A stretch of 64,000 nucleotides of DNA, taken from assembly GCF_030144855.1 (NCBI RefSeq), contig NW_026779196.1, forward strand, positions 62,001 through 126,000, given 5' to 3'. Within the stretch, counting starts at the first letter, position 1. Each line of letters starts with the position of its first letter. The notes under the pieces are model-generated. The model was given only the letters and a program-made list of their open reading frames with translations, was not told the DNA's origin and ran no database searches. A program made the position numbers and the translations under genes. Source of the stretch: Hypanus sabinus (taxonomy: Eukaryota). Shown one piece after another: positions 2,961 to 50,734 of the stretch.

Positions 2961-3840
2961 CTCAGCCAGTGGAACACCTCACCACAGGTAGTGTTTGTGT
3001 CATCAGTCAGATAACCTAATTACTTTCTCTGTCAATCTGCTTCCAAATGTCATTCGTTGACATGCCCTGTTGCTGAATCCCCTCTCCTCATCATACGTTC
3101 TCACCCCGAACATCGTCCAGGGCCCCAAATTCTGCTCTGTGCAGACCTCCCTCTGGTTTCTGACCCAGCTTCATTGAAAATCCAATTGATGACTTCCCAC
3201 TCTGCTTTCAGTCTTTAGAGGACAGTGGTGTTCGCTAACAACATTTTAGAAGTGGGGAAAGTGACCCATAATGTGGACATGAGTCGTGATTAAGGAGGTT
3301 AACTCCCAATGTCATTCTTCCTCAGCCCAGAGATTAGAGGGGCAAAGAACATCTCAGACAGAACTGCAGTCAGCTCGACTTCTTCAGTCTGCAAGAAATT
3401 CAAGGGAAACATATTCACCCACAGAGTGATGACTATTTGGACCTCATCCCAGGGAGAGTGAGAGGTGAACAACAGGGGAGGATTTGAAAGATCTGTTGTG
3501 GAACAGAATCACTGGCAGGGTTCAGCCAGCCTGAGTTGACTCTCTACTGTACACTAGGTGTGTTATAAATTCACTAAGTAACAGAGACAGTGCTTAAGAT
3601 AGAACTGATTCATTTGTCACAGATCTAGTCCCATTAAAGGTGAATATGCAGCAGAAGAAACTCCTCCCAGGCCCAGTGACCAGGGTGCAGAACTGGGTGT
3701 GGTGAGCAGCAGCAATAATTGCAGAGTTCAACACTTACAATCACTCTCAAAATAGCATTCAGCAATGGTGATGGACAAATATCCAGCATGAAGCTTATTG
3801 AAACTTTCTCCCCTGTGTGAATCCGGTAGTGTGTTGTAAG

Positions 3841-4256
3841 TGTAACACACTGTAAGGTTTCACTGCTAATGTAATGACCTCTCTGTAATGTTTCACTGCT
3901 GAGGTAGTGGTTTCTCTGCAGCAGCAATGTTTAGGATACAACTAGAGATAACAGGGTTTTGGAGTGCTGGGCTATCCAATGACAGAAATGTTCTTTCTTG
4001 TGAGTCTGAATGAGAGAATTTCATGGGCTTTTGTTGTGGAGAGATGAGAAGCCACAAATGGGGAGAGTGGGCCCTTTTTTTTTACTTTACTAACCCTTTA
4101 GTCAAAGTAAGAATTATGAATCACATCTTGTGTACTGTTTGTTATTTTGGGGTATTGATATGTAACAGGGGACGCGGCGCAGCATCCACACACATTTGGC
4201 CGAGCTAGGGGGCTATCACCCCCTATATTAAGCTGCTAGCCGGAGTGAGAGTTACA
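3841..4256. mobile_element. Solo LTR inserted in the terminal dead zinc finger downstream of ZNF-A
   Basis: Termini TGTAAC...GTTACA with 4-bp TSD TAAG (3837-3840 and 4257-4260). Removing it restores CGNVFTQSSNLTTHYRIHTGEK on the minus strand. Confidence 0.85.
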
Positions 4257-4290
4257 TAAGGTTAGATGACTGAGTGAATACATTCCCACA

Positions 4291-5853
4291 TTAACAGGAG
4301 GTTAATGGTCTCTCTCCAGTGTGAACTAACTGGTGTGTCAGTAGGCGAGATGACCGAGTGAATCCCTTCCCACAGTCTGAGCAGGTGAATGGCCTCTCAC
4401 CTGTGTGAATTCGCTCATGTACCTTCAATTGAGATGATTGAGTGAATCCCTTCCCACAGAATATGCAGGTGAACGGCCTCTCCCCAGTGTGAACTGACTG
4501 GTGTGCTTGTAGGCCAGCTAACTGTGTGAATCCCTTCCCACAGTCTGAGCAGGTGAATGGCCTCTCCCCAGTGTGTACTCGCTGATGTACCTTCAATTGA
4601 GATGACCGAGTGAATCCCTTCCCACAGTCTGAGCAGTTGAATGGCCTCTCCCCAGTGTGAACTAAATGGTGTGCTTGTAGAGTAGCTAACTGAATGAATC
4701 CCTTCCCACAGTCTGAGCAAGTGAACGGCCTCTCCCCAGTGTGAACTCGCTGATGTACTTTCAGTTGAGATGACGAAGTGAATCCCTTCCCACAGTCCAA
4801 GCAGGTGAATGGCCTCTCCCCAGTGTGAACTCGCTGATGTACCTTCAGTTGAGATGACCGAGTGAATCCCTTCCCACAGTCTGAGCAGGTGAATGGCCAC
4901 TCTCCAGTGTGAACTGACTGGTGTGTCAGTAGGCAAGATGATAGAGTGAATCCCTTCCCACAGACTGAGCAGGTGAATGGCCTCTCACCAGTGTGAACTG
5001 AATGGTGTGCTTGCAGGCTAGATAACTGTGTGAATCCCTTACCACAGTCTGAGCAGTTGAACGGCCTCTCGCCAGTGTGAACTGACTGGTGTGCTTGCAG
5101 GCCAGATAACTGTGTGAATCCCTTCCCACAGTCTGAGCAGGTGAACGGCCTCTCCCCAGTGTGAACACGCTGATGTACCTTCAGTTGAGATGACAAAGTG
5201 AATCCCTTCCCACAGTTTGAGCAGGTGAATGGCCTTTCTCCAGAGTGAACTGACAGATGTACCTTCAGTTGAGATGACCGAATGAACCCCTTCCCACATT
5301 CTAAGCAGTTGAACGGCCACTCTCCAGTGTGAACTGACTGGTGTGCTTGTAGGTTAGCTAACTGTGTGAATCCCTTCCCACAGTCTGAGCAGGTGAATGG
5401 CCTCTCCCCAGTGTGAACTCGCTGATGTACTTTCAGTTTAGATGATGAATTGAATCCCTTCCCACAGTCTGAGCAAGAGAACGGCCTCTCCCCAGTGTGA
5501 ACTGACTGGTGTGCTTGTAGGTTAGCTAACTGTGTGAATCCCTTTCCACAGTCTGAGCAGTTGAACGGCCTCTCCCCAGTGTGAACTCGCTGATGTACCT
5601 TCAGTTGAGATGACGAAGTGAATCCCTTCCCACAGTCTGAGCAGGTGAACGGCCTCTCCCCAGTGTGAACAGACTGGTGTGCTTGTAGGCCAGCTAATTG
5701 TGTGAATCCCTTCCCACAGTCTGAGCAGGTGAATGGCCTCTCTCCAGTGTGAATTCGCTGATGTATCTTCAGTTGGGATAAGTAGGTGAATCCCTTCCCA
5801 CATTCCGAGCAGGTGAACGGCCTCCCCTCAGTGTGAACTCGCTGGTGAGCCAT
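4291..5853 (-). CDS. Tandem C2H2 zinc-finger protein ZNF-A (18 fingers, 520 aa, no effector domain seen)
   Basis: Uninterrupted ORF of CxxC-x12-HxxxH fingers with TGERP linkers. Confidence 0.93.
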
Positions 5854-6594: not shown

Positions 6595-8220
6595 CTGCAG
6601 TGCATTCCACGCACCCACCACTCTCTGGGTAAAAATCTTACCCCTGACATCCTCTCGGTATCTATTTCTAAGCACCATAAAACTATGCCCCTTCGTGTTA
6701 GCCATTTCAGCCCTGGGAATAAACCTCTGCCTATCCACATGATCAATGCCCCTCATCATCCTATACACGTAAAAAAAGGCTCTAAACATAAACAAGGACA
6801 TTGTACATAGCTTTGGGAAATTGTCAGAAGTATACAAGATTATGAGGGTGTAGATAGGGTAAATGCAAGCAGCTTTTTCCACTGAGGTTGGGTGGGATGG
6901 CAACCAGAGGTCATGGGTAAGTGGGGAAGGTGAAAACTTAATGGGAACATATGGAAAAGCTCTTTACTGAAATGGTCGTGAGAGTGTGCAATGACATGTC
7001 AGCACAAGTGGTGAATACGAGCTCGGTTTCGCCATTTCAAAGAGGTTTTGATGGAAGCCTGGATGGTAGGTGTATGGAGGGCGATGGTCTCAGTGCAGTT
7101 AGTTGCAATAGACAGCTTAAATGTTTTTTTGGCATTGACTAGATGGGCCAAATGGCCTGTTTCTATTTTGAACGTCTCCATTATTCTATGACAGAGAAGC
7201 TGGACAAACTTGTTTGGAAGGGAAAAGGTTGGAGTGACAACGGAGCAGCAATGGCTGGAATTTCTGGGAGCAATTCAGGAGCTGAGTGATCGACATATCC
7301 CAAGGAAGTGAAAACATTGGAAACCAGGAGTACATAACCATAGTTGAATTGAGAAGCTAAAGCCAACATAAAAGCCAAAGAGAGGGCAAACAAAAGAGCA
7401 AAAGCTATTGGGAAGCGAGAAACCAACAGAAGACAATGAAAATGTTCAGATGAGCTCAGGGCATGGATGATGATTAATGAGTCTTGGTAGCACCCAAAAG
7501 TCTGAGGCATTTAAAGGAACGAAATATCCGGGGCTTCAATATAGCCAGAAAGCCAAGATTCCCTGCACCAGTTACGTTTCAACTGTTACATTGTTAGGCA
7601 CATAAAGTCTCTACACCCTCAAAATTTCACTTCTGAAGGCCTCCCACTTACAAAGTACTCCTTTGTCAGAAAACAGCATGTCCCAATCCACACTTGTCAG
7701 ATCCTTTCTGATACCATCAAAATTGACCTCTCTCCAATTTAGAATCTCAACCCATGGTCCAGACCTCTCTTTTTTCATCTTTATTTTGAATTTCATGGCA
7801 TTATGAACACTAATTTCTGTCACCAGCCCTGGTCATTGCCTAACAGCTTATTGCACACTTCTACATCGGGAATTTTACGTACCAATTAAGGGCACATTTG
7901 ACAAACTTTACCCCATCTAGTCCTTTTACAGTATGGGAGTCCCAGTCAATATATGGAAAGTTAAAATCGCTTACAATCTCAACCTTTGTTTCTTGGCATG
8001 GTCTGTGACCGCTCTGCAAATTTGTTCCTCTAAATCCCTCAGACTGTTGGGTGCAACCAAGCCCCTATAATGGCCACAATATCATAATTCCCTGTCCTGG
8101 GCTCATCTGGCTTTCCTACAATGCTTCTTGCATTGTGCTATACACAGCTCAGCACATTCATCGCACCATGCTCAACCATTTGATTGCTGACTCTGTCTGA
8201 GGTCTGAACAATATCTGACT
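6595..8220. mobile_element. Patchwork of CR1 fragments in both orientations (ZNF-A intron)
   Basis: CR1 motifs FTQRVVGAWNAL and FDGIRKDLTSVDW. The same fragment order is seen inverted at about 24050-25600 and, in part, direct at about 51440-51920. Confidence 0.7.
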
Positions 8221-8879
8221 GGTGTCAAGAAAACAAACTCTCCCTCATTATCACAAAAACAAAGGAGCTGATTGTGGAGGACAGGAGGAGTGGAGACACA
8301 GATAAGGGCATCACCCTGGGACCAGTGACCAAACGACAGCTTCCCCAGTTTCCGAATCCCCAGTAGTGGGCACTTAATCTGGACTCCACCGCGTTTGAAC
8401 CCCTTCCGTCAGCGGCCGACCCTCATGTGATTCTGTGCTATGACACTAGGGGGTGCTCATTGAGGAAAGCCAATATTATGCACCCCTCGAGCGAGAGAAG
8501 TTCCCAGTCATGGTGATTGGACAGGATTAAGGAAAAGAGGGCAGCACATTACTGGCCGAAGTTCCGGATTTCCTTTGGTGGCAGACAGGACTGGTGGCTC
8601 CCCGTACCATCGTTAGGGTTTGCCCTGGGTTCAAGTCAAAAAGCCCAGAGTTCCTTGCCTTCACCCTGAGGAAACAAGCCTCCAGCAGCAAGGGAGACTG
8701 GCAAGACTTGGCCGTGGGCCAACTCCGATACTGGAAGGACATTGAGGTGAAGACGGGACATCTGGTAAGACTCTCTTTTAAAATTGACTGAACCCAAGAC
8801 ATTGCACACAATCTCTGCTCAATTTCAGGCAATGAATTTGACTGCACCAACTGCCCCCTGTCTGGATCACCGTGAAAGA

Positions 8880-9763: not shown

Positions 9764-9931
9764 CAAAATTTCTCCTGACTGAATCACTGGAATGTCCGAG
9801 TCAGTTGGGTTCTCTCTGATTGATGCTCTCAGTCCTCGGGTTGGTTCACTTGTTGCTGCTCCCTCGTCATCAGTCGTGGTTTTCCTCCAGTTGGGGTTTT
9901 TCTTCCAATAAATCTCTCACTGCAGGTCTAA
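9764..9931 (-). other. Possible non-coding internal exon of ZNF-A
   Basis: Pyrimidine-rich tract with AG at 9933-9932 and a G|GTGAGT donor at 9764/9763. All three frames contain stops. Based on splice motifs only. Confidence 0.3.
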
Positions 9932-11664: not shown

Positions 11665-12407
11665 TGTTACGAACTGTAACGTTTTAGAAACGAACCAGCA
11701 GCAATAGAGTTCACACTGGAGTCTGTTTTTGATGTTAAAAGCACTCTCTTTATTGGTCTCTACTTATAACATAGTAAGTTAACGAAAGTTAACAGTGTTA
11801 ATTGGATATATGTGTAAATATAATTCCCCAGACTATCGAGCCTGAGGAAACAAAGCTTAGAGTCTTGAAATGGTAAAGAAGGAAAGTTCAGAAATCCACG
11901 GAATAAATGATGGGAGAGAGATATTTGTGATCCAGAGTGAAATGTAGAGAAAAGGCGGTTACTTCAAAATAACCGTCGACGAAGTTCTTATCCGTTGAAT
12001 CCGTCCACATACGAGTTATCAGCGAAAGTGACCTGTCACAGGAATACCGTCTTCCAGGGGTTACCACACAACATACCCAGGCAAGGGTTAACACAAGATA
12101 TTCCAAACTCCACTCCTATGGATTATACGAAGTGACAGCCNNNNNNNNNNNNNNNNNNNNNNNNNNNNNNNNNNNNNNNNNNNNNNNNNNNNNNNNNNNN
12201 NNNNNNNNNNNNNNNNNNNNNNNNNNNNNNNNNNNNNNNNNNNNNNNNNNNNNNNNNNNNNNNNNNNNNNNNNNNNNNGATCGCTCTCTCTCTCTTATGG
12301 TTCAGTTCACAGTCAGCGCTGTCAGCCTGTGACTGACGTCATAGTCCCGCCTCCTCACGCCGGCGCTCTTAAAGAAACAGTCACAGTACGACCGCAGGCT
12401 CGTAACA
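11665..12407 (-). mobile_element. LTR sequence (same family as 32732-33746), spanning an assembly gap
   Basis: Termini TGTTACGA...TCGTAACA. The first ~90 bp are the reverse complement of the end of the LTR at 33660-33746. The TSD is ambiguous (ACTG vs GCCG). Confidence 0.75.
12141..12278. other. Assembly gap (138 N)
   Basis: Run of N. Confidence 1.
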
Positions 12408-13590: not shown

Positions 13591-14320
13591 TGATTGTTTT
13601 GCCAGTTTCATTTTTCATTTTTAGAATATTTTTTACTGATGCATAATCTTCTACAACTATATAATGATGCAAAACGTCAATAGATTAGTATGTACACAGT
13701 TAATAAAGCTGAAAAAAACTGATCGTATAATATAAAAATGGGAAAAAAATATATAGAAAAATAAGAGAAAAAAGTGTCCCATCTAACGCGGAAAAAAACC
13801 CAGTAACCAGAAAAAAAGGGGAAAAGTCCATTAGGAATGAACCCTCCGGAGCAATACGTTTGACCATTACCTAAATTTTTAAAAAAAGAATAATCAACCG
13901 TCATTTCACACTTATAAAAAAAATAAAATTGGACGGAAACCATATAGCATAATTCAAATTAAATGATAATATTTGGCAAAAGAACCCCATCTTCTCTCAA
14001 AATCGAATCGAGGATCAAAAGTTCTACTTGTATTTCTTCCAAACTAAGACATAACATTCCTTGAGAAAACGATTCAATTAATGTAGGGGAAGAAATATCT
14101 TTCTGTGGCGACCCATTTCCTGGCACATCCGAACCGACTCACAATTAGATAGCCTACGGGGGTTTGCGAGCACAGAGCTTTGGAGCCTCTGCGCCATGGG
14201 GGGCAGGTTGAGGGAGGCTTAAAAGTGAGGCTGAAGATTTCGAATAAAGTTTTTTCCTTCGACTGCAGTTACCGACTCCGTGTCGTAATTTTAGCGCTGC
14301 GTGTAGCACACCGCTACAAT

Positions 14321-14334
14321 TGGTGACCCCGACG
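14321..14334 (+). promoter_or_regulatory. Primer-binding site complementary to the tRNA-Trp 3' end
   Basis: TGGTGACCCCGACG, 2 nt after the 5' LTR. Confidence 0.9.
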
Positions 14335-14358
14335 GTCCAAACGATTTTTGGACCAGAA

Positions 14359-15047
14359 ATGACCGACGCCGCCTCTGTTCATGCAGTTTCGTTGAAACGG
14401 CCGGGTTTCTGGACACAGCGCCCGGACCTATGGTTCCAGCAAGCCGAAGACCAATTCTACGTTCGCCAGATCACCTCAGAAGATACCCGCTACAACTACG
14501 TGGTGAGCTCCCTCGACCAGGACACAGCGGCCCAGGTCGCGGAGTTCGTACAGTCGCCCCCGGCAGACGGCAAGTACACGGAATTCAAAGCCCTGCTCCT
14601 CAGGACTTCGGACTGTCACGGCGCGAGCGGGCTGCCCGTTTACTGCACCTGGATGGCTTGGGCGACAGACCTCCATCGGCTTTAATGAATGAGATGTTGT
14701 CTCTCGCCAGCGGACACACACCCTGCCTCATGTTTGAGCAGGCATTCCTGGAGCAGCTGCCCGAGGACATACGCCTGCTGCTGTCCGACGCGGATTTCAA
14801 TGACCCCCGGAAGGTGGCAGCCCGGGCGGACTTGCTGTGGAACGCCAAAAAGGTGAGCGGGGCGTCCATCGCACAGATCACCCAGCCACACTCCCGGCAG
14901 CAAACCAGTCCAGGCCCGGCCGCAGAGCCCGCCAACCCCCGGCCCAATGAACACTGGTGCTTCTACCACCAGCGGTGGGGCGCAGAAGCCCGCCGTTGTC
15001 GCCCGCCCTGCAAGTTCCCGGGAAACGCCAGGGCCAGCCGCCGCTGA
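14359..15047 (+). pseudogene. Gypsy gag (one frameshift near 14606)
   Basis: LKxPGFWxxxPxLWFQQAE at the N-terminus and a CHCC knuckle CFYHQRWGAEARRCRPPC, split across ORFs 14320-14685 and 14430-15047. Confidence 0.9.
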
Positions 15048-15077
15048 TGGCTACGGCGGCTGGCCATCGGGATAGCC
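15020..15077 (+). promoter_or_regulatory. Putative -1 programmed ribosomal frameshift signal (slippery G GGA AAC plus pseudoknot)
   Basis: The heptamer 15020-15026 is in the gag frame and pol is in the -1 frame. There is a 12-bp stem (15032-15043/15054-15065), and loop GGCTA can pair with TAGCC at 15073-15077. Confidence 0.8.
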
Positions 15078-20479: not shown

Positions 20480-20575
20480 TCGCTGCAAGGAGAGCGCGAG
20501 CACGTGTCCATCTCCGTGATCTGATTGGATACATCGCCATGACGTTTAGCAGTGTGACGTCATTCACTGGCTCTC
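20480..20575. promoter_or_regulatory. CpG-rich motif cluster (E-box, CCAAT, CRE)
   Basis: CACGTG 20501-20506, ATTGG 20524-20528 and TGACGTCA 20555-20562. Confidence 0.4.

Positions 20576-22089: not shown

Positions 22090-22091
<2 letters not shown>

Positions 22092-22150
<59 letters not shown>
22092..22150. repeat. (TG)~30 microsatellite inside a Penelope-type repeat
   Basis: Directly visible. Confidence 0.98.
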
Positions 22151-22152
<2 letters not shown>

Positions 22153-22379
22153 CTAGCAACTGCGGAATCTCTTGTGTTTTATATCTGCCTCTGTAACGAG
22201 AGGCATTAGATAAATAGAATGCCTGTTGATATTGAGTATATTGTTTTTGGGAGCCGCTTTCCACGTTAAAACAGCTGCTGAGTTCTCTACACAGAAAAAA
22301 AAACCCTGAGGTGTGGACATGAAACCGGTGCTAGCAGGAAAGTTTAATGGCACCGCGATTACCCATAAAGCCCTGAGTT

Positions 22380-31098: not shown

Positions 31099-32739
31099 AT
31101 GGCTCACCAGCGAGTTCACACCAGGGAGCGGCCGTTCACCTGCTCAGTCTGTGATAAGAGATTCACTCACTCTTCCACCCTATGGAAACACCAGCGAGTT
31201 CATACTGGGGAGAAGCCATACATCTGCTCAGTCTGTGGGAAGAGATTCACTGAGTCATCCACCCTACTGGTACATCAGCGAGTTCACACTGGGGAGAAGC
31301 CGTTCACCTGCTCTGTCTGTGGGAAGGGATTTACTCGGTTATCCCACCTACAGAGTCACGAGCGAGTTCACACTGGGGAGAGGCCTTTCACCTGCTCAGT
31401 ATGTGGGAAGGGATTCACTGATCCATCCAACCTACAGAGACATCAGCGAGTTCACACTGGGGAGAAGCCGTTCATCTGCTCAGAATGTGGGAAAGAATTC
31501 ACTGAGTTATCCAACCTGCAGAGTCACCAGCGAGTTCACACTGGGGAGAAACCGTTCACCTGCTCAGAGTGTGGGAAAGGATTCACTGATTCATCCACCC
31601 TACAGAGTCATCAGCGAGTTCACACTGGAGAGAAGCCGTTCACCTGCTCAGAATGTGGGAAAGGGTTCACTCATTTATCCAACCTACGGAGACACCAGAG
31701 AGTTCACACTGGGGAGAAGCCATTTACCTGCTCAGAATGTGGTAAAGGATTCAGTGAGTCATCCACCCTACTGGTACATCAGCGAGTTCACACTGGGGAG
31801 AAGCCGTTCACCTGCTCAGAATGTGGGAAAGGATTTACTGCTTCATCCACCCTGCATAGTCACCAGCGCGTTCACACTGGGCAGAAGCCTTTCACCTGCT
31901 CAGTCTGTGGGAAAGGATTCACTCGGTCATCCAACCTACAGAGTCATCAGCAAGTTCACACTGGAGAGAGGCCATTCACCTGCTCAGTCTGTGGGAAGAG
32001 ATTCTCTCATTCATCCACCCTACAGAATCATCAGCGAGTTCACACTGGGGAGAAGCCATTCACCTGCTCAGTCTGTGGGAAGAGATTCACTCAGTCATCC
32101 CAAGTACAGAGTCATCTGCGAGTTCACACTGGGGAGAAGCCGTTCACCTGTTCAGAATGTGGGAAGGGATTTACTCAGTTATCCCAACTACTGAGTCATC
32201 AGCGAGTTCACACTAGGGAGAAGCCGTTCACCTGCTCAGTCTGTGGGAAGGGATTCACTGATCCATCCAACCTACAGAGTCATCAGCGAGTTCACACTGG
32301 GAAGAAGCCGTTCACCTGTTCAGAATGTGGGAAGGGATTTGCACAGTCATCCCAACTACTGAGTCATCAGCGAGTTCATACTGATGAGAGACCATTCCCC
32401 TGCTCAGTCTGTGGAAAGAGATTCACACATTCATCCACCCTACAGAGACACCAGCGAGTTCACACTGGGGAGAAGCCATTCACCTGCTCAGTCTGTGGGA
32501 AGAGATTCACTCGGTCATCTGACCTACAGAGTCATCATCGAATTCACACTGGGAAGAAGCCATTCACTTGCTCAGAATGTGGGAAGAGATTCACTCATTC
32601 ATCCACCCTACAGAATCACCAGCGAGTTCACACTGGGGAGAGGCCATTCCCCTGCTCAGTATGTGGGAAGAGATTCACTCGCTCTTCCACCCTGCAGAGA
32701 CATCAGCAAGTTCACAATGGGGAGTGGCCATTGTTATGA
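31099..32739 (+). CDS. Tandem C2H2 zinc-finger protein ZNF-B (19 fingers, 546 aa)
   Basis: Uninterrupted finger ORF with TGEKP linkers. Likely exon acceptor tttttacag at 30690-30691. Confidence 0.93.
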
Positions 32740-33960
32740 ATCCCTAGGTTTCATTTGCTGTGGACTGTCATTTGAAGAGAGAGACAGATATTAAGAAGGT
32801 GAATCAGTCTGACTTACAGCTTATTTACATCGCTCGCAGCTTGTTTAGTTTTAACCGATGACACAGACACTCAGAGTCAGAAGGAGGAAAAACGGAAGGA
32901 TCAAAATCCAGGAACCAGCGGCCAAGGGTCTGATGCGCCATCAATAACTCTCGGAGACCTGAGGCGAGATATGGGCTTTTATTAGCTGAAAAATTGAACA
33001 CTCTCAGCAGCAGAACAGCAAGAGATCAAAGAGCCGTTCCTCCAATCTCCTTTATACAGGGGTCTGTGGGAGGACATAGGAGCAGTCAGCAAGGGGGGGG
33101 GGGGGGCGTGTCCAGTCAGGTATATGTAGTTCACCACAGGGTCGCTCTTTAGAACTTTCCTATGCCCACAATGGTAGGTTAATTATCAATTCACCATACT
33201 TCGAATGTGTGGTTGTGACCCTGTTTGATCCATATCAGTGGATCTGTTTTGAGGTATCCTGTGAAGACCACTGACGTCTTAACCCTTGCCTAGATGTGGT
33301 GTGGTAATTCATTTGAAGACAATACCCCTTGTGACAAGTCACTTTCGGTAATAATTCATATGTGGATTTGGAATGATGACAGATAAAGTATACAGCAACT
33401 GTCCTCTCATTTTACCACCATGGAACCTGTGGAATTTGACATAATTGCCTTCTCTTGATATTTACCCTGGATTACAAATATCTCTTATCATCTATTCTGT
33501 GGATGAACTGAACTTTCGCACTTTACCATCTCAAGACTCCAAGCCTTGTTTCCCCTGAGCTCAATAGTTTGGGAGTTATATTTACACACGTCTATACACA
33601 TAACACTGTTAACTTCTGTTTATCTTGTTTAATTTGCAATTTTTTTAAGTAGATTCTATTAAAGATAGTGGTTTTAACATCAAAACCAGACTCCAGGTGT
33701 AGTTTATTGCTGCTGGCTCATTTCTAAAGCATTAAGGTTCATAACAAATTTGGGGCCTGCGTCTGGGATAGGACCAAATTTGGGGTCTATTGATCGATTT
33801 ATTATCGATTTGATTGGGGAAATCCCTTTTGATTTATTTGTGTGTGGAAATCAGCAGCAATGGATACTGATAAATTTCTGGAAACGCCAACCCCTGAGGC
33901 ATTAGTAAAAGCCAAAATGAATGAATTGCTGACTGTTGCTACTGGGCTGAATCTTAAGGT
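32732..33960 (+). mobile_element. LTR retrotransposon 5' part: LTR (32732-33746), degenerate tRNA-Pro-like PBS (33751-33769), gag start (33860); possibly Gmr1-like Gypsy
   Basis: Inverted termini TGTTATGAA...TTCATAACA. TGGGGCCTGCGTCTGGGAT resembles the Pro PBS TGGGGGCTCGTCCGGGAT. The peptide MDTDKFLETPTPEALVKAKMNELLTVA is gag-like. Confidence 0.8.
32931..33138 (-). mobile_element. Nested 208-bp solo LTR
   Basis: TG...CA ends with 5-bp TSD GGGTC (32926-32930, 33139-33143). TATAAA and AATAAA are on the minus strand. Confidence 0.85.
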
Positions 33961-36620: not shown

Positions 36621-36649
36621 GTGTTAGTTAAAGAATGAACTGGAAGGGA

Positions 36650-39600
36650 GAGTGGATTGATAATTTCCCTCTGGGATCCGTATTAAGTCAATCCTCTCTC
36701 AACTTAAACCAGTGCCCTCTGGTAGTTGATTCCACAAAGGTGGGGAAAAGGACTGTGCATATACCCCATTTCTGTACCCTCATGGTTTGGAACGCCTGCA
36801 TAAGGTCACCTCAATCTCCTGCAATTCAAGGTGTGAAATCCCAACCTGTCCAACCTCTCTCCAGAACTCAGTCCCTCGAGTACCGGCACCATTCTCGTAA
36901 ACCTCCCCTGCACTCATTCCAGCATGACGTCCTCTCTCCTGTAGCAGAATGACCAAACAGGAGGAAATTTGCAGCTGCTGGAAATTCAAACAACACACAC
37001 AAAATGCTGGTGGCACTGTCAGAAGCACTGTTAGTGACGAAGGGTCTCGGCCCGAAAAGTCGACAGTGCTTCTCCCTATAAATGCTGCCTGGCCTGCTGT
37101 GTTCCACCAGCATTTTGTGCAGAATGACCAAAACTGAATACAATAATCCAGGCGCGAATACTCTAATCCTAATGAAACCTCACTGGCCTCTTCTTCAGAC
37201 CATGAGCCATGAGATATCGGACAGAGGCTGCTCAGCCAATCGAGTCTGCTCCGCCATTCCTTCGTGTCCAATTGATTATCTCTCAACCCCATTCTCCTGC
37301 CTTCTCCCCATAATCTTTGAACATCCATTTAAAATACACTCAATGACTTGACCGCTACTCCGTTCATGGGAATGAATTCTAAAGATTAAAATTCCTCCTT
37401 ATCTCTGCTGTCAGTGGATGCCCTATACATTGAGGGCTGTCCTCTGGTCCCAGATTCACACAGTACAGGGTGCATCTTCTTCACAGCCACTCTGTCTATG
37501 CCTTTCAATATTTAATAGTCTTCATTGAGATCCCCTCTCTTTCTTCCAGACCAGCGAGTACAGGGTCAAAGCCGTCTAATGCTCCTCATACTTAACCATT
37601 GCATTCCTGGAATCACCCTCGTGAAACTTCTCCGGACCAGCTCCAATACGAGAGTAGCATTTTCTCAGATAACAGGTCGGAAACAACTCACAATACACCG
37701 AGCGATCTGACCAATGCGTTTTAAAGCTAGTGTCACATCCTTGCTATTATATGCTAACATTACTGTTGCCATCCTTAATCAACACAATCTGCAAGCAAAA
37801 CAACAGGGACTCCTGCTCAAGGACTCCCAAGTACCTATGCTCTTCTGATTTTTGAATTTTCTCCCATTTTTTTTCTACGCCCCTATTCCTTCTACAAATT
37901 GTACATGACCGTTCCCTTGCACACACCGTGTTACATCCGCCACTTCGTTGCCTGTTCTCCAAACCTATCGAAGTCTTTCTGCAGACTCCCACTTCTCTCG
38001 AAACTACCTGCCCCGTACGTATCCTTGTATCAACTGCAAAGTTCGTCGCCAAGGTATCAATTCCGTTATCCATATCATTCAGATTTAACATGAAACGATG
38101 CGGTCTCAATACTGACCCCTACAGAACACCATGAGATACCGACAGCAAAGCAGAAATGTCCATATTATTCTGACTCTTTCTCCCTTGTCAGTCAGCCAAT
38201 CTTCGATCCAAACACGTCTCTTTCCTGTAATTCCATGAGCTGTCATCTTGTTAAGCAGCCTCTCATGCAGCAACTTGGAAACATAGAAACATGAAAATCT
38301 TGCAGCACAGTATAGGCCCTTCGTCCCACAAAGCTGTGCCAAACCTTTGAAATACCTAGGCTTACTCATAGCCCTCTATTTTTCTGAGCTCCATATACCT
38401 ATCCAGGAGTCTTTTAAAAGACCCTCTCATTTCGGCCTCCACCACCACCGCCGGCAGACCATTCCACACACTCACCACTCTCTGCGTAAAAATCTTACCC
38501 CTGACATCTCCTCTGTACCTACCTCCAAGCACATTTAAACTGTGCCCTCTCATGTAGTCATTTCAGCCCTGGGGAAAAGCCTCTGACAAACCCCATGATC
38601 GATGCCTCTCATCATCTTGTACACCTCTATCAGGGCATCTCTCATCCACCGTCACTCCAAGGAGAAAGGGCCGAGTTCATTCAACTTCTTCTCATAAGGA
38701 ATTCTCCTCAATCCAGGCAACATCGTTGTAAATCGCCTCAGCAACATTTCTATGGCTTCCACGTCCTTCCTGTAGTGAGGCGACCAGGACTGCGCACTAT
38801 ATTCCAAAATGCGTCTGATCAGGGTCCTATATAGCTGCAACAGTAAGTCACGACTTTTAAACTCAGTCGAATGGTGGATGAAGGCCAATGCACCGCACGA
38901 CTTCTTAACCACGGAGTCAACTTGTGTTGCAGCTTTGAGTGTCCTATGGACTGGAACCCCAAGATCCCTTTGATTCTGCACACTGTCAAGAGTCTTACCA
39001 TTAATGCTATATTCTGCCATCATATTTGCCCCATCAAAATGAACAACCTCACACTTATCTAGGTTGAACTCCATCTGCCAGTTCTCAGCCCAGTTTTGCA
39101 TCCTGTCAATGTCCCACTGTAACCTCTATCATCCTTCCACACGATCCACAGCACCCACAACATTTGTGGCATTAGCAAAATTAATAAACCATCCCTCCAC
39201 TTCCTCATTCAGGTCAATTATAAAAATCAGAAAGAGTAGGGGTCCCAGAACCGATCCCTGAGGCACCCCACTGATCACCGACCTCCATGCAGAATATGAC
39301 CCGACTACAACCACTCTTTGCATTCTGTGGCAAGCCAGTTCTGGATCCACAAAGCAACGTCCTCTTGGATCCCATGCCTCCTTGCTCTCTCAACTAGCCT
39401 TGCATGGGGTACCTTGTTAAAGATCATCTGAAAATCCAAGCAAACAACATCCACTGCCTCTGCTTTATCTATCTTGCCTGTTATTTCCTCAAAATATTCC
39501 AAGAGATTTGTCAGACACTATTTCCTGTAAAGGAATCCTGCTGACTTTATCCTACTTCATCATCCTCCCCAATTACAGTACCCAAAACACTCACCCTTAA

Positions 39601-41880: not shown

Positions 41881-43036
41881 ATTTGAGGGGCGAGGAACAT
41901 CTCAGACAGAACTGCAGTCAGCTCGACTTCTTCAGACTGCAGGAAATTCAAGCGGAACCTTTCACCCACAGAGTGGTGACTGTTTGGAACTCATTCACAG
42001 GGACAGTGAGAGGTGAACAACAGGGGAGGATTTGAAAGATCTGCTGTGGGACAGAATCACTGGCAAGGTCCAGCCGGCCTGAGTTGACTCTCTGCTGTAC
42101 ACTAGGTGTGTTATAAATTCACTAAGTACCGGAGACAGTGTTTAATATAGAGTTGATTTATTTGTCACAGGTCTAGTCCCATTAAAGGTGACTATGCAGC
42201 AGAAGAAACGCCTCCCATGCCTGGTGAGCAGCAGCAATAATTGCAGAGTTCAGCACCGACACTCACTCTCGAATTTGCATTCAGCAACGCTGATGAATAA
42301 ATATTCATCATGCAGCTGATTGAAACGTTCTCCCAGTGTGAACCGGTAGTGTGTGGTAAGTGTAACACGTAGTAAGGTTTCACTGCTAAAGTAACGGCCT
42401 CTCTGTAATGTTTCGCTGCTGAGGTAATGGTTTCTCGGTAGCAGCAATGTTTAGGGTAAGACTAGAGGAAATAGGGTTTTCGAGTGTGGGACTATGCAAT
42501 GACAGAAATATTCTTTCTTGTGAGCCTGGAAAAGAGATTTTCACGGTTTTTTGCTGGCGAGAGATGAGAAGACGTGAATGGAGAGAGCGGGCCCTTTTTC
42601 CTTTTTTTTCAGTTTCTTTACTAACCCTATAGTCAAAATAAGTATTATAGAGCTCAATCGTTTAATTGCATATTGTGCATCGTTTGTTACTTCGGGGTAC
42701 TGATCTGCAACATGGGACACATCACACAGCATTCACCCAAATGAGAGTTCCTAAGTTTGCTCGGGCTGGGGGGGGGGGGTGGGGGGGCTATCACCCCGTA
42801 TATTAAACTGCCAGCTGAAGCGATCGTTACGTAAGGTTAGATGAATGAGCAAATAGCTTCCCTCATTCACAGCTGATGAACAACCTCTCCACAGTGTGTA
42901 CTGAATGATGCACTTCTGGTTGATTTGGCTGTGAAAATCTCCTGATAAAGTCTGCACAGGTGATTAGTCTCTACCCAGTGTGAACCCGCTTGTGTCTCTG
43001 TAGTTGAAATGACAAAGTGAATCCCTTCCCACACAT
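41880..43036 (-). pseudogene. Orphaned 3' end of ZNF-C (3 decayed fingers plus ancestral 3' UTR with AATAAA at about 42157-42162)
   Basis: [20 protein letters not shown]... continues the finger broken at 49595. 41880-42850 is collinear with 3333-4290. Confidence 0.85.
42361..42831. mobile_element. Solo LTR, paralogous copy of 3841-4256
   Basis: TGTAAC...GTTACG with TSD TAAG (42357-42360, 42832-42835), at the same position in the terminal finger. Confidence 0.85.
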
Positions 43037-43039
43037 TGA

Positions 43040-46000
43040 AGCCAGAATTATTCTTCTCCGTCGAGTCTACGCCGTAGGCTCTACGTAGCCGCGTACCCGA
43101 CGCTGCACCCTCGGCTGTATTGTATACCGTAGCCTAATGCGCACATTCCTAAAAATGCAACTACGCATCACAGCGACGCAGACGACAAGAACTGTGATTG
43201 GTCCACTTAGTAGCAGCCAGTTTCCTTTTCTTTTTCAATCTTTTTATTAAGTTTCAAATTTAATAAGCATAGCAATTATATAACGATACAAAGAGATCGG
43301 GATTACATTAATAACGGTTGACACGTAAAAGCACAGATTTCAAATGACAAATATAGTTTAACCTCCTAATCTCATAGCAACTAACCATGAAAGAGATATT
43401 ATATAAGGTGAAAAAAATCGTAAACTAGAAAAAACACTAAACTTTAAAAAAGACAGAATTGGGCTGTCATATTACATCGGCTGAAATTATTTGGCGTTAA
43501 CTCCGCTTGTCTATACAAGAACAAAAACTTATTACACAAGATTCGGAAAGGGTCAACTTAAATCATATGAAAATATTGAATAAATGGCCTCAAAGTCTCT
43601 TCAGATTCAACCGAAGGATCCACAGTACCACTCCTAATTTTTTCCAAGTTTAGACATGCTATGGTTTGGGAAAACCATTCAAATGTAGTAGGGAGATTGG
43701 AACCTTTCCATTTAAGTAAAGTAGATCTGCTGGCCATTAATGTAACAAATGCAATTAGACGACAAGCTGACGAGGATAAATGACTAGAGTCCATCACCGG
43801 TCGTCCAAAAATTGCAGTAGTAGGATGTGGTTGTAAATGAATACGCAGAACTACTGAGATAATATCTCAAAATATCCTTCCAATATTTTTTTAGAGGAGG
43901 ACAAGACCAGAACATATGTGTCAAGGAAGCTACCTCGGAATTACATCCATCAGAAACAGGATTTAATGGCAGTAAAAATGAGCAAACTTATCCTTGGACA
44001 TATGAGCCCGATGAACCACCTTAAATTGCATGAAGGCATGTCTGACACACACTGAAGAGGTATTTTCTAGTTCAAGAATTTTCTCCCATTTCTGCATAGG
44101 TAAAGGTATCCGAAGTTCTCTTTCCCACTCATTCTTAATTTTATCAGAAGTATCCAAGTGTATTTTCATAATTAAATCATAAATAAATGATAATAAACTC
44201 TTCTGATGTGGATTTGAACTTTTTTCCCCCGTAACTTCAATTCGATGTGATATCGGAACAGAAGGTAAAATAACATTCAAAAAGTTTCTAATCTGTAAAT
44301 ATCAGAAAAAGTGTGATCTAGGCGAATTATATATATTAGAAAGTTGTTCAAAAGAAATAAAACAATCATCCATAAATAAGTCACGAAAACATAATTTTCC
44401 CTTTGTTTGCAATAAAAGAAAAGCTTGATCAATTTAAATGGTTGAAAGAAAAAAAATAGATATAATAGAACTTGACAGTATATATTTATTTGGTCCAAAA
44501 ACGTACCAAAATTGAAACCATATTCCTATTGTATGCTTACTTATTGTAATTACCATTTGCTTATTAAATTTAGTAAGTGCAAAGGGAACCACAGCCCCTA
44601 ACATAGAAGCCAATGAAAACTCCTGTCGAGACTCACGCTCAAGGTTCATCCAACTCTTGTGTCCAAAACATTAAATATCGAACATTAATTGCCCGATAAT
44701 AAAAACTATGATCCGGCAAAACCAAGCCTCCTTCCTTTTTTGATTTCTGTAACTATTTCTAATTTAACCTGGGATTTCTATTCTGCCATCCATATGCAGA
44801 AATTTTAGAATCAATAATATTAAAAAAATGTTACAGATAAAAATTGATACTGCCTGAAATAGGTACTGAAATTTAGGTAAAATAATCATCTTAATAGCAT
44901 TAATGGAACCAATCAAGGATAAGGACAATGGGGACCATTTAGTAAACAATTGTTTAGACTGATCAATTAAGGGTAAACATTAACTTTAAATAAATCGTTC
45001 TGCTTCTTAGTAATTTTAACACCCAAATAAATAAAATAATCAGCAAGCAATCTAAATGGTAACTGTCTGTAAATTGAGACTTGCCTATTTAATGGGGAAA
45101 GCACTTTTATTAAGATTCAGTTTATAAGCAGAAAAACTACTAAACTGTGCAAGATGTGTTATTACTGCAGGAATGGTTTACTCTGGATTAGAAATATCTA
45201 GCGACAGGTTATCTGCATATTGTGATACTTTACGCGTCCCATTCCCATGAGTAACACCAAATATATTGGATGAATCATGAATAGCAATTGCCAAGGGCTC
45301 CAGGCCAATATCTGATAGTAAGGGACAGCCTTGTCTAGTACCTTGGAAAAGCCTAAAGAAAGGGGATCTCTGATTATTAGTGAAACAGACGCCAAAGGTA
45401 TATGTTATATCAATTGCATCCAAGATATAAATTTTGGGCTAAAAGTAAATTTCTCTAGTATTTTAAACAAATATTCCCATTCAAATGTATCAAACGCCGT
45501 CTCGGCATCGACCGAGATAACACATTCTGGTGTCTTAGATAAAGTCATGTATACAATGTTCATTAACCTCCAAACATTAAAATGTGTATAATGATTTTTA
45601 ATAAATCCTGTCTGATGCTCGGAGACAATTTGTGGCAATATCTTCACCAATCTAATTGCTAATATTTGAGAAAGGATTTTAGATACAACATTCACAAAGA
45701 TATTTTTCTGTCTGTTGCACATTCAGTGAGATCATTTATCATTTTTGGGAATTAAATAAATTGATGCTTCATAAAATGTTTGTGGTAACTTATGTACAAA
45801 TAAAGCATCTTTAAAAATTTTACCTAACCAGGGAGAAAGTAAACCGGAAAAAGATTTTAAAAATTCAGCTGTATACTCATCCGGACCAGGTGCTTTACCA
45901 GAATTCATTGAATAAATTGCTTTCTTTATTTCCTCTTCAGTAATGGGTGTGTCTAATACTAAATGTTCATCAACTGATAATTTCAGAATATTTAATTTCC

Positions 46001-49000
46001 TGAAAAATTCATGCATTATGATAGAATCCTCAGGAAATTCTGATTGGTATAAATTGGTATAAAATTCTTGAAAAAATTTGTTAATTTCGTCATGGTCAAC
46101 CGTCAAAGTACCATCCTGTTTAAGAACCCTATTAATCTGAAGTTTCGCTAAAGCAGCTTTTAATTGGTTAGCCAATAATTTACCCAATTTATCAACAAAT
46201 ATATAAAGTAACTGATTTTCAATCAGGGATGTTAATAACAAATGATGTTGCATCTGAAGTTCAACTCTCTCTTTATAAAGCATCAAATGGGGAGCAATAG
46301 AATAATTTCTATCAATTTCTTTAATCTTATCAACCAATGTACGTATTTCATTATTAATTTGAAATTATTTTTTTTTCAATCCAGCAGAGTGTGAAATAAT
46401 TTACCCTCGGATATATGTTTTAAAGGCATCGCGTGATATCCCACTTAAAATTTCTTCCATTGAGTTAGTTGAAAAGAAAAAAGCAATCTGTTCTTTAATG
46501 AAATTAATAAAATTTAAGCCCTGAAGTAAAATAGAGTTGAACCGCCATTGTTTGGTACCAAAGGTTACATCAGTTAACTTAACTGATCATTTCAAAGGTG
46601 CATGATCGGAAATGGCAATGTTATCATATTCACAGGCAGTGACAAATGAAACTAATCGAAAATCAATAAAGGTGTAAAGGAATCTAGAGTAATTATGATA
46701 TACATGAGAAAAAAGAGAACTCTTTTTCATTAGGATGTAAAAACCTCCTAATTTCTAAAATTCCAGAGTCAACTAAGAAGGAATTAATAAAAATAGCAGA
46801 TTTGTTTGTAAGTACCTGATTAGGCACAGACTTATCCATCATACGTTTCAGACATCAATTAAAATCTCCACCCATTATTACCATATATTCATATAAATTG
46901 GGAAGAAATGCAAAAAAGTGCTTAAATTCAGTATAGTCAGTATTTAGTGCATAAATATTAACCAAAACTAATTTATTGTCATAAAGTTAACCGGTGTTTA
47001 ATAGAAGTCTATCATATTGGTCTGAAATTGTATCATAGTGAACAAATGAAATCTAGGAGTCTATAAAAAAAAGAAACACCTTTCACCTTAGTCGATGAGT
47101 TAGAGCGAAACTGTTGGCCTTTCCGAAAACTAAGGAAGCGCTGATTACCCTCCTTAATCAGATGAGTCTCCTGCGCAAAAATAATCTGAACATTCAGTCT
47201 ATGAAAAACTCAAAAAATATTCTTCCATTTAATTGGATGATTCAAACCGTTCGTATTCCATGAAACAAAATTAATAATGACAAAATTAATTAGGAATATC
47301 CATTTTCCTTAAATAAACAATGTAGTATGTAAAGGGTTAACCATATTGCATAGGAAACTCACGAATCAGGAAGATGGAAAATAGTTTAAAGAGGAAACGG
47401 AAGTTACGAAAATACAGACATTTTTGTAGTTTCAGTTCAGCCAAAAAGAAAAAAATACTAGACTAAAAATAGCCCTACCCCACCCCCCCACCCCAAACCA
47501 CAAAGACCAAAAACCTGGCCAATAGACAGCCAAACAACTATCTAAGAACCTCCCTACCCTTGTCTCCCTTGAGGGCAAATCTCTCAAAATAAAAAAAATT
47601 AGAAACAAACCACCCATTGTCAAAACATTACGAGAGGAATGTCAAGCAGATGTTAGAGAAAAAACAGCCAATTGCAGACCATTTTAAAAGGAAAGGTCTT
47701 AAAAATGACACAAAATACAATTTTAATAATATTTCAAGAAAAAGGAAATAATCAGCAAATCAAAGTCTTAATGATTTTCAAAAGCAAACAACTAAAAATA
47801 AAAAAGTAAAACAATGAAGGAAAAATTAAAGGAACTTTAACGTGGAAACATAATAAACGTCCGTACGTCAAAACACAGTGCGACTGTAATCAACCCAAGG
47901 GCAAAGTTCTAAAGTGTCCAAATCTATAAGCTGGTTGTTAATTAATAAACCAGATACACAGACATAAAGGAACCGTAAATTTCACAGACATCCACGCTCA
48001 AATATTGATCTTCAAAACATTAGACATCTGCGTTCAAGCTTAGATCTTCGAGAAATTGTTTTGCTTCATTCACAAATTTAAAGCATTTGAATGATTTGTC
48101 GGGCAGAGCAACCCTTAGGTGAAATGTTTAGAACAAAGCTGGACAAAGATTCCTCTGATATAATTCTGACATCACCATTTTAAAATGCAATCTTTCTTGC
48201 ATAACCTCAGGACAAAAATCTACAACAAAATGAAACTTAAGATGCTGATGCTCAGTAACTCCTTTCTGATGAGCAATCGGAATGAAGAGCTCCTTAGTAT
48301 TCCCATTGTGACATCGTAGAATTACATGACGCGGTTTTAACCCTTTCGACGGTTTTGGTTTCAGCGCCCGATGTGCGCGGTCGAGCGCAGGAAGAGAAGA
48401 AAAACCTCTGAGCCAAAGACCTCCATTCAGAATTGAGAAAAAAATGAGTAAGATCCCAGCTCTCAATGTCCTCACTGTGTCTATTATTCGCAAATTCAGT
48501 CTGTGGCTTCGACTCTCCAAATCAATAATCTTGACTTTATTCTGCTCCAATATATGAGTGGTCAAAGTTCATTTCTTTTCCAAAGAATTCAATTTGTGAT
48601 CTCTGTTTCAAGCTGTTACAAGCGATGAAATTTCTCACTGCTGTTTTTTGTTCTTCTTTTCAAGTGTTGCCAACCTACCTTCACTCTCCTTTAACCATAC
48701 TTCCAAGGTAGTAAACCTTTTAGCAAGTTTTTCATCCAAAAGAATCGAGATAGCCTGTAAAGTAAGTTGAAACTTTTTAGGCTGTTCAAAGACACCTGCT
48801 TTCTTCCCATTTCCATTGCAGTTTCCTTGCCTTCAGCTAATGCCTTTCTTCCTCTGTAAGCCATTTTAGTCGATTAAAATTCAAATTCAAATATATAAAA
48901 GTGTTATAAACACTTTGATAAAGATATTAAAGGGGTGGTAAGTAAATTTAAAATGAATAGAGCAAAGCCGGAAAGCGACTCCATGTAGCGCCTCCAAGAG

Positions 49001-49594
49001 AGTCTTTTGCCTAATGTAGCCTAACGTGCACATTCCCAAAACTGTAACTATGCATCGTGGTGACACAGACAGCAAGAACTGTGATTGATCTACTTGGCAG
49101 CAGCCAGTTTCCTCCTACGCATATCCTGTTGTTTCAAAGTTGGAAAATGGAACAAATTGAGGAGAGGGTAAGTGAGGAAGTCAGAAAATATGTACATTTG
49201 CACGACTCTTCACCGGCACACAATAAAGACTTGAAAATGGCATCAAATTTGTGGAAAGAAATTTCCACAAGAGCGGCTTGGACGTCATGGACTGCACAAA
49301 GAAATGGAAAAATTTCTCTCTTTCTGCGCTGCAGTAATTTCAATAAAAGTAACTCTTGTTCAACATCCATTAGCTCCAACTCCAACAAGATGAACTCAGC
49401 AGTTGCCATCGTTCCCAACTCCACTCAAGTCAATTCAACACAGTGGAATAGCACCCCAACACCAACTAGCGTTTTGGCAGAGCAACGCAGGCACACAAAC
49501 ACACAAGTAGAAATGCTCACAACTGTGTAGACAACATGCATGGGCTACTGCATATGCTACACCATAGTGCCTACTCAGAGGTATAATTCAGGCT
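43040..49594. mobile_element. Internally deleted PIF/Harbinger DNA transposon carrying a nested L1
   Basis: Imperfect TIRs AGCCAGAATTAT../..ATAATTCAGGCT and 3-bp TSD TGA (43037-43039, 49595-49597). A MADF-like start MEQIEERVSEEVRKYVHLHD..KD..NLWKEIS (49147, +) converges on a transposase-like N-terminus (49409, -). Confidence 0.85.
43227..49004 (-). mobile_element. Near full-length degenerate L1 (ORF1 about 48864-48040, ORF2 about 47300-43558)
   Basis: ORF1 DLESRSHRLNLRII/LDRAHR. ORF2 FVSWNTNGL, QETH, GGDFN, SDH, GKAPGPD, GTRQGCP and YAD motifs. There is a T-rich tail at 43227. Confidence 0.93.
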
Positions 49595-50734
49595 TGAGCA
49601 GGTGAATGGCTTCTCCCCAGAGTGTACTGACCGGTGTGCTTGTAGGTGGGATGACTGTGTGAATCCCTTCCCACAGTCTGAGCAACTGAACAGCCTCTCT
49701 CCAGTGTGAACTCGCTGATGTACCTTCAGTTGAGATGAGCAAGAGAATCCCTTCCCACAGTCTGAGCAGGTGAACGGCCTCTCCCCAGTGTGAACTCGCT
49801 GGTGTACCTTCAGATGAAATGACCGAGTGAATCGCTTCCCACAGACTGAGCATGTGAACGGCCTCTCTCCAGTGTGAACTCGTTGATGTACCTTCAGTTT
49901 AGATGAGCAAGTGAATCCCTTCCCACAGTCTGAGCAGCTGAACGGCCGCTCCCCAGTGTGAACTCTTTGATGTACTTTCAGTTGAGATGACTGAGTGAAT
50001 CCCTTCCCACAGTCTGAACAGGTGAACGACCACTCCCCAGTGTGTACTGACTGGTGTCTCAGTAGCTGAGATGACAAAGTGAAACCCTCCCCACAGTACG
50101 GGCAAGTAAATGGCCGCTCCCCCGTGTGAACTGACCTGTGTGCTTGTAGGTGAGATGACTGAGTGAATCTCTTCCCACAGTCCGAGCAGGTGAACGGCCG
50201 CTCACCGGTGTGAACTCGCTGGTGAGCCATTAGGGCGGATGACCGAGTGAATCCCTTCCCACACACTGAGCAGGTGTATGGCTTCTCCCCAGTGTGAGCT
50301 GACTGGTGTCTCAGTAGCTGAGTCGACAAAATGAATCCCTTCCCACAGTATGAACAGGTAAACAGCCTCTCCCCAGTGTGAACTGACCTGTGTGCTCGTA
50401 GGTGGGCTGACTGAGTGAATCTCTTCCCACAGTCTGAGCAGGGGAATGGCCTCTCCCCAGTGTGCACTTGCTGATGTACCTTCAATTTAGATGACTGAGT
50501 GAATCCCTTCCCACAGTCTGAGCAGGTGAACGGCCGCTCGCCAGTGTGAACTCTCTGATGTACCTTCAGTTCAGATGACTGAGTGAATCCCTTCCCACAG
50601 TCTGAGCAGGTGAATGGCCGCTCCCCAGTGTGAATTCTCTGATGTACCTTCAGTTTAGATGAGCAGCTGAAGCCTTTCCCACAGTCTGAGCAGGTGAACG
50701 GCCTCTCCCCAGTGTGAACTCGTTGGTGAGCCAT
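49571..50734 (-). CDS. Tandem C2H2 zinc-finger protein ZNF-C (13 fingers, 387 aa from first ATG), truncated by Harbinger
   Basis: Finger ORF whose first ATG (MAHQRVH) is at 50734. The final residues SLNYTSE* are read from the Harbinger TIR. Acceptor at 51139-51140. Confidence 0.9.

What the first reader, a model, noticed from the sequence alone, without database searches (positions are those of the whole stretch)
3837..49597. All three ZNF arrays carry a transposon in their 3' fingers; two get their stop codon from it
Seen: ZNF-B's TGA (32737-32739) lies within the first 8 nt of an LTR (TGTTATGA) inserted in the linker. ZNF-C's stop lies in a Harbinger TIR inserted between the two Cys of finger 14. 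A solo LTR sits in the recognition helix of the terminal dead finger of A and C. That is three independent insertions, all at the 3' end, each leaving a long intact array. Established: tandem ZNF clusters co-evolve with TEs in tetrapods (KRAB-ZNF) and teleosts. Inference: TE insertion may set finger number and 3' ends in this family. Alternatively, only 3' insertions are tolerated, which would itself imply purifying selection on the arrays.
Basis: partly seen in the sequence, partly recalled or inferred. Interest (0 to 1): 0.7.

Follow-up and report, generated by a model that had tools for sequence, protein, structure and literature searches.

The report
Ancient transposon caps on zinc-finger genes
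The jumping-gene pieces at the tail ends of these three zinc-finger genes are real, but each is one old insertion copied along with the gene into many relatives, so they mark gene subfamilies and supply the stop signal in some, while the number of fingers varies freely behind the same insertion, likely through repeat recombination.

Summary
Observation confirmed: B's stop lies in an LTR, C's stop in a TIR element, and A and C share one solo LTR. These are not locus-specific events. The three genes belong to a family with 369 exact exon-start hits in this ray-like genome. Among 96 sampled hits, 34 end in the same Gmr1-like Gypsy element, 47 belong to the lineage carrying the same solo LTR, 13 are empty and 2 are unclassified. 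Junction LTRs form single clades (98/93 and 98/96). Only 19 of 96 longest ORFs stop in inserted DNA, 18 of them from two founder insertions. Empty-site genes already have a linker stop and two dead fingers, so the solo LTR entered 3' UTR. Finger number spans 6-27 units behind the identical LTR junction, so TEs do not set it. Scaffold codons show purifying selection, and the family is spliced in two RNA-like runs. The best reading is tolerated terminal insertions spread by duplication, as in mouse KZFP clusters. The scan earlier noted a single-gene case in a shark (e1-9392604). Co-option of the LTR as a poly(A) site remains open.

The parts
4291..5853 (-). ZNF-A coding stretch, Met to host-derived TAA, 18 intact C2H2 fingers; last exon starts at 6255 with dead fingers before the Met
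3841..4256 (.). LTR-1 solo LTR (TGTAAC..GTTACA) in the terminal dead finger of A, 3' UTR; TSD CTTA at 4257-4260 and 3837-3840
3480..3836 (-). Rest of terminal dead finger and native family 3' tail of A; the family AATAAA reads AATGAA here
9764..9931 (-). Likely upstream exon of A (AG..GT bounded); its end matches the sequence spliced to the ZNF exon acceptor in runs X3 and X5
31099..32739 (+). ZNF-B coding stretch, 19 intact fingers, ends HNGEWPLL* with the stop inside LTR-2; last exon starts at 30692
32732..33746 (+). LTR-2: 5' LTR of a decayed Gmr1-like Gypsy element in sense orientation; ATTAAA at 33658; followed by a PBS-like tract and about 180 bp of internal sequence
32931..33138 (.). 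208-bp TG..CA element nested in LTR-2, TSD GGGTC; in the 96-gene census found in LTR-2 only in B's closest copies (L121, L162)
49571..50734 (-). ZNF-C coding stretch, 13 intact fingers, ends [11 protein letters not shown] with the stop inside the TIR element
43040..49594 (.). Non-autonomous TIR element (Harbinger-like MITE, TSD TCA) in finger 14 of C, split by a nested L1
43227..49015 (-). Decayed L1-type LINE nested in the MITE, flanked by a 98-bp duplication at 83% identity; shared with diverged paralogues L074/L080
42832..43039 (-). Severed remainder of C: rest of finger 14 ending in the ancestral linker TAG, then two dead fingers
42361..42831 (.). LTR-1 solo LTR in the terminal dead finger of C, same site and TSD (CTTA) as in A

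Best explanation
The three insertions are old founder events at the 3' end of single zinc-finger genes, which were then multiplied with their genes by DNA-level duplication into a family of hundreds, and they likely persisted because an insertion at or behind the last live finger costs little while one inside the array is removed. Shown: shared junctions, single LTR clades, empty sites, variable finger number behind a fixed junction. The ancestral 3' module was live fingers, a linker TAG, two dead fingers and a tail with AATAAA. LTR-1 entered the last dead finger. The MITE later entered the last live finger of one LTR-1 lineage and gave a new stop one finger early. In a separate lineage a sense-oriented Gmr1-like element supplied the stop and replaced the tail. 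Inferred: the tail was lost by recombination between two elements or by deletion; finger number changes by unequal exchange between 84-bp units; interior insertions are purged by selection, probably helped by that exchange; LTR-2 would supply the poly(A) site.
For: Census of 96 exon-start hits: LTR-1 39, LTR-1 plus LINE 5, MITE 3, LTR-2 34, empty 13, other 2. All 17 junction LTR-1 copies tested form one clade against 30 free copies (98/96). All 39 junction LTR-2 rows form one clade apart from the 3' LTRs (98/93), and several 3' LTRs share one flank. All 34 exact TIR hits are at ZNF junction places already listed. Each of 48 5'-flank lineages has a single 3' class. Empty genes L087, L088, L089, L108 have the linker TAG plus two dead fingers and one copy of the target. 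At four Cys/His/Phe codons, 167 synonymous against 5 non-synonymous transition codons among 892 unique interior units. CGA to CAA/TGA is 59/11 in the interior and 16/22 in the terminal units (p=1e-5). Recent copies have pN/pS 0.37. Interior breaks 2 against 8 in the 3' cap (p=0.009, hand counts). Spliced contigs at the exon acceptor in X3 and X5.
Against: The census is the first 100 of 369 hits in contig order and needs an exact 29-nt motif, so decayed copies are missed. Unit counts share ancestry and are not independent events. pS in B copies (0.073) exceeds flank variation (0.040), so conversion or CpG inflates it; nonsense depletion in recent copies is not significant (p=0.18). Many recent copies carry premature stops. 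Empty and LTR-1 genes are interleaved in an unresolved 5' tree, and LTR-1 monophyly by tail is neither shown nor rejected (p-AU 0.50). LTR-2 has no TSD and no empty site was identified, so the number of fingers it removed is unknown. Near-identical scaffolds (such as C1304) may be assembly duplicates. Expression of A, B or C themselves is not shown, and the upstream exon was found only for A.
Confidence: 0.82

Rival explanations
1. TE insertion is a recurrent mechanism that trims arrays and so sets finger number in this family.
For: B and C stops lie in TEs; 19 of 96 longest ORFs stop in inserted DNA; L092 is cut after one finger by unclassified sequence.
Against: 18 of those 19 come from two founder events. 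Finger number is 6-27 behind the same LTR-2 junction and 6-15 behind the same MITE junction; L064/L161 carry a recombinant last finger. In 19 of 34 LTR-2 genes the stop lies upstream in host sequence.
Confidence: 0.05
2. The Gmr1-like element (or LTR-1) targets zinc-finger repeats and inserted many times at the same phase.
For: 29 of 30 LTR-2 pattern loci examined adjoin a finger; junction variants exist (phase 65 in L141-type genes, a different upstream finger in L225).
Against: Junction 5' LTRs form one clade whose subclades mirror the 5'-flank tree, and they are closer to each other than to their own 3' LTRs (77-79% identity). Free LTR-1 copies sit in unrelated flanks in 30 of 30 loci.
Confidence: 0.03
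3. Neutral array-edge effect: the genes are mostly junk repeats, unequal exchange homogenises the interior and deletes insertions there, and debris gathers at both edges without selection.
For: Dead fingers lie at both ends of every array; finger number changes fast; many copies have premature stops; no effector domain in the ORF.
Against: Homogenisation alone does not explain the synonymous excess at Cys/His/Phe codons or the CAA over TGA asymmetry; the family is spliced in two studies. It probably contributes alongside selection.
Confidence: 0.1

Closest known systems
Young mouse KZFP gene clusters (PMC12575710; passages read)
   Same: Multi-gene blocks duplicated together with TEs that had inserted earlier, so TE enrichment follows from duplication; chimeric elements as recombination scars; arrays truncated by point mutation.
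   Different: Here no KRAB domain is found in the ORF, and the hitch-hiking TEs sit in or right behind the last finger and form the stop and 3' UTR of a whole subfamily. The passages read do not describe that.
Cyprinid FiNZ-ZNF and metazoan tandem ZNF expansions (Wells et al. 2023, PMC10547256; section 4 and passages read)
   Same: Hundreds of clustered, lineage-restricted tandem C2H2 genes in TE-rich regions, with the array in one last exon.
   Different: No FiNZ-like coding exon in frame here; TE repression is untested; the main text has no occurrence of shark, cartilaginous or chondrichth (supplements not seen).
Finger gain and loss in primate KZNF genes, such as ZNF780B (PMC3126818; passages read)
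   Same: Finger number changes by deletions in the array; dead terminal fingers.
   Different: No TE-derived end is involved in the passages read ('insertion' has 0 occurrences).
Gmr1-like Gypsy retrotransposons (PMC8220671 passage; SCAN origin in PMC4592553 passage)
   Same: Integrase upstream of reverse transcriptase in the element behind L096; a second case of a Gmr1-like element joined to tandem ZNF genes.
   Different: In tetrapods the gag part became the N-terminal SCAN domain; here only the 5' LTR is joined, at the 3' end, adding two codons and a stop.

Membership tests
Tandem C2H2 (Kruppel-type) ZNF genes | Five or more tandem C2H2 fingers with TGE[KR]P linkers in one exon | tested here: met
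   18, 19 and 13 fingers; PF00096 and PF13465 with 19 stretches in B
KRAB-, SCAN- or FiNZ-ZNF | N-terminal effector domain in frame with the array | tested here: not met
   B's ORF: the 25 best of 40 Pfam families shown include no KRAB or SCAN; the ORFs start at a Met behind dead fingers with stops. Other splice forms were not tested.
KRAB-, SCAN- or FiNZ-ZNF | Binds and represses TEs | not testable with these tools
   Needs ChIP or knock-down
Gmr1-like Gypsy (LTR-2) | Integrase upstream of RT in an LTR element | tested here: met
   In L096 on the gene strand PF17921 precedes PF00078 between two LTRs; gag, protease and RNase H pieces were read by eye only
Gmr1-like Gypsy (LTR-2) | RT falls in the Gmr1 clade in a tree | not tested
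   No reference RT set at hand; the element is in fragments
Gmr1-like Gypsy (LTR-2) | Target-site duplication around the element | tested here: not met
   The flank after the intact 3' LTR does not repeat the 5' junction and holds no finger; this points to later recombination or deletion
Solo LTR (LTR-1) | TG..CA termini, 4-bp TSD, dispersed copies, empty site | tested here: met
   354 exact end matches; 30 of 30 loci examined are free, with exact 4-bp TSD in 4 and near-exact in 5; empty sites. The internal partner and superfamily were not identified.
PIF/Harbinger MITE | Short TIR and 3-bp TSD (definition recalled) | tested here: met
   Perfect 12-bp TIR and TSD TCA in L066/L068
PIF/Harbinger MITE | Free copies or an autonomous partner with Harbinger transposase | tested here: inconclusive
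   Two guessed patterns found nothing; all 34 TIR hits are at ZNF junctions; the 40 scored DNA hits are all on small scaffolds

The most novel reading that the evidence does not exclude
A Gmr1-like LTR was co-opted as the complete 3' end (stop codon, 3' UTR and poly(A) site) of one founder ZNF gene, and this cap favoured its spread to about a third of a several-hundred-gene family in rays, for example by putting retroelement sequence on ZNF mRNAs so that the repressors are tuned by the cell's own TE-silencing state.
Probability: 0.2. Interest if true: 0.65.

Novelty: new member of a known kind. Interest (0 to 1): 0.38.

Why it matters
It corrects the window-level reading: apparent TE enrichment at ZNF stops is mostly inheritance of two or three founder insertions, a pitfall for any genome-wide count that treats paralogues as independent. 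The junctions are clean markers for the subfamilies and order of events in a large effector-less ZNF expansion of rays. I found no description of it in searches (open library only). If LTR-2 provides the poly(A) site, about a third of the family would have a retrotransposon-made 3' end.

Tried and rejected
1) Poly(A) co-option of LTR-2. A(A/T)TAAA is kept in 30 of 31 census genes that retain the LTR end (3 lack it) and in 14 of 15 lineage representatives, but 24-31% of AT-rich 6-mers in the same LTR are as conserved: inconclusive. The 'lost' labels were partly a slicing error, corrected. 2) No RNA holder listed on record. Contig depth drops near the ATTAAA in all four runs, but contig depth cannot rank parts, so it is not used. 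3) A severed remainder of B-type arrays was sought in 16 extended loci plus the window. Same-strand finger remnants appear in 5. L116's is a separate gene with its own exon start, L141's matches the separate relic type seen at window 20560, and L155's begins at a LINE-like break; L154 and L158 were not printed. None follows a 3' LTR. 4) Free copies of the MITE: searches found none. 5) Protein search for the HNGEWPLL end in other species (159 hits): none of six cartilaginous-fish proteins read ends that way; P0044 (Hemitrygon akajei) only shows the same family style. 6) Retrocopy origin of B-type genes rejected: they keep the intron end and acceptor. 7) LTR-1 monophyly by tail tree: unresolved. 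8) Upstream exon for B and C not found in the window.

Full report
Setting. The window is G000:C329:62001-126000 of a 4.04-Gb genome. The gene style matches a stingray protein (P0044), and earlier notes on this genome call it a stingray. It holds three tandem C2H2 arrays: A (-, 18 intact fingers), B (+, 19) and C (-, 13). Each lies in one last exon that opens with dead fingers, and the ORF starts at a Met in a half finger. No KRAB or SCAN is among the Pfam families shown for B.

Observation. B's TGA is inside an LTR at 32732-33746, followed by a PBS-like tract (resemblance to a tRNA-Pro site is recalled, not tested). C's TAG is inside a TIR element, 49594 to 43040, with TSD TCA and a nested L1. 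A solo LTR with TSD CTTA lies in the terminal dead finger of both A and C. A's stop is host-derived and upstream of that LTR.

The junctions are not unique to this window. Each is found in many genome copies: all 20 loci read for A's LTR, 30 for B's and 30 for C's junction lie next to finger arrays. B and C recur together about 17 kb apart on at least 14 places, twice on one scaffold (C2029), so multi-gene blocks were duplicated. Some near-identical scaffolds may be assembly duplicates. The junctions are also shared with paralogues only 75-88% identical.

Census. A 29-nt exon-start motif has 369 exact hits. I fetched 96 of the 100 listed, leaving out the three window genes and one cut by a contig end, and mapped finger-derived DNA with a circular profile. 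The 3' ends fall into few classes: solo LTR-1 39, LTR-1 with a LINE-like insert 5, MITE 3 (LTR-1 seen behind it in L161 and C, out of reach in two), LTR-2 34, empty 13, unclassified 2. The longest ORF stops in inserted DNA in 19 of 96 (15 LTR-2, four of them a TAG made across the junction; 3 MITE; 1 unclassified). Counting from the conserved Met it is 17 of 90. The 96 collapse to 48 lineages by 5' flank, each with one 3' class.

Single origins. Seventeen junction LTR-1 copies form one clade against 30 free copies (98/96). Thirty-nine junction LTR-2 rows form one clade (98/93) apart from the 3' LTRs, with subclades mirroring the 5'-flank tree. The 5' and 3' LTRs of one element are only 77-79% identical. 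All 34 exact hits of the MITE terminus are ZNF junctions. LTR-2 belongs to a decayed Gypsy element with integrase ahead of reverse transcriptase, the Gmr1 order (PMC8220671, passage). It has no TSD, and no ZNF remainder follows its 3' LTR.

Order of events (inferred). Empty-site genes such as L087-L089 and L108 already have a linker TAG, two dead fingers and the tail; 40 of 57 empty or LTR-1 genes keep a linker TAG in the last 260 bp. So LTR-1 landed in 3' UTR. The MITE then landed in the last live finger of one LTR-1 lineage, one finger ahead of the old TAG, which C's severed remainder still shows. In a separate lineage LTR-2 gave the end HNGEWPLL*, which is spread across its subclades; in 19 of 34 genes a stop lies upstream in host sequence. 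Finger number is set elsewhere: 6-27 units behind LTR-2, 2-34 behind LTR-1, 8-28 in empty genes, and 6-15 fingers among 15 near-identical C copies, one with a recombinant last finger.

Selection and expression. Among 892 unique interior units, four Cys/His/Phe codons show 167 synonymous against 5 non-synonymous transition codons. The CpG codon CGA gives CAA 59 and TGA 11 in the interior but 16 and 22 in the terminal units. Recent copies give pN/pS 0.37 (56 synonymous, 47 non-synonymous, 4 nonsense), with conversion or CpG probably inflating pS and nonsense depletion not significant. By hand count, 2 interior breaks stand against 8 in the 3' cap (p=0.009; three of the 8 may be deletions). These counts share ancestry and the sample favours well-kept copies. 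Contigs of runs X3 and X5 (two studies, RNA guessed) begin at B's acceptor with the same foreign upstream sequence, which matches an AG..GT exon at 9931-9764 upstream of A; the DNA-like run X22 lists no such end. Contigs in X1 and X3, two organism labels, bridge the finger-LTR-2 junction at 85-90% identity, so it is likely shared between species. This is family-level evidence; expression of A, B or C is not shown. Poly(A) use of LTR-2 is inconclusive.

Known context. TE enrichment by duplication of blocks that already held the TEs is described for mouse KZFP clusters (PMC12575710, passages). Finger loss by deletion is described in primates (PMC3126818, passages; lead from e1-9392604). ZNF-TE co-expansion is in PMC10547256 (section 4 and passages). 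Gmr1 gag as the source of SCAN is in PMC4592553 (passages). A word search of a batoid genome preprint found no 'zinc' or 'ZNF' (10.1101/2025.06.08.657570), and PMC13709654 had none of five 3'-end terms. Searches (listings only) showed no description of TE-capped ZNF subfamilies in cartilaginous fish. Closed journals and supplements were not seen and may bear on this.

Verdict. Real and well resolved, but ordinary in mechanism: tolerated terminal insertions carried along by gene duplication. The family-wide scale and the Gmr1-like 3' end of about a third of the sampled genes are the new facts.

Noticed in passing
window 14101-18264 (+): Young Gypsy element with 221-bp LTRs 97% identical and RT, RNase H and integrase hits, broken by frameshifts.
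   Followed up: partly
window 9764-9931 (-): The upstream exon of A reads like former coding sequence (about 55 codons across one frame change), yet the ZNF exon opens with stop-bearing dead fingers, so any effector seems uncoupled from the array. Not searched.
   Followed up: no
window 20560-20830 (+) and L141 extension: Short, decayed ZNF relic with a tail-like sequence, also copied elsewhere.
   Followed up: partly
window 11665-12094 (-): Another LTR-2 family LTR, 76% identical to B's, outside the junction clade.
   Followed up: partly
L128, L133, L138: A 40-bp piece of the first dead finger is tandemly amplified up to about 30 times in the 5' part of the ZNF exon.
   Followed up: no
L104, L105, L114, L115, L176: An empty-site lineage whose terminal finger lacks the usual in-frame stop; in L104 it is read to its end.
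   Followed up: no
L096, L108, L122/L135/L161: 5'-flank tree and 3' class disagree: L096 (LTR-2) groups with LTR-1 and empty genes, and the MITE lineage groups with empty genes (97/91), hinting at cap swapping by recombination.
   Followed up: partly
window 21879-23866 and 52400-54314; 6841-8298 and 23926-25394; 38280-39421 and 60496-61637: Kilobase non-ZNF segments shared at 76-80% identity, probably older duplicated gene flanks or repeats.
   Followed up: no
window 62400-64000 and 57500-57950: Tandem arrays of about 63-bp and shorter units.
   Followed up: no
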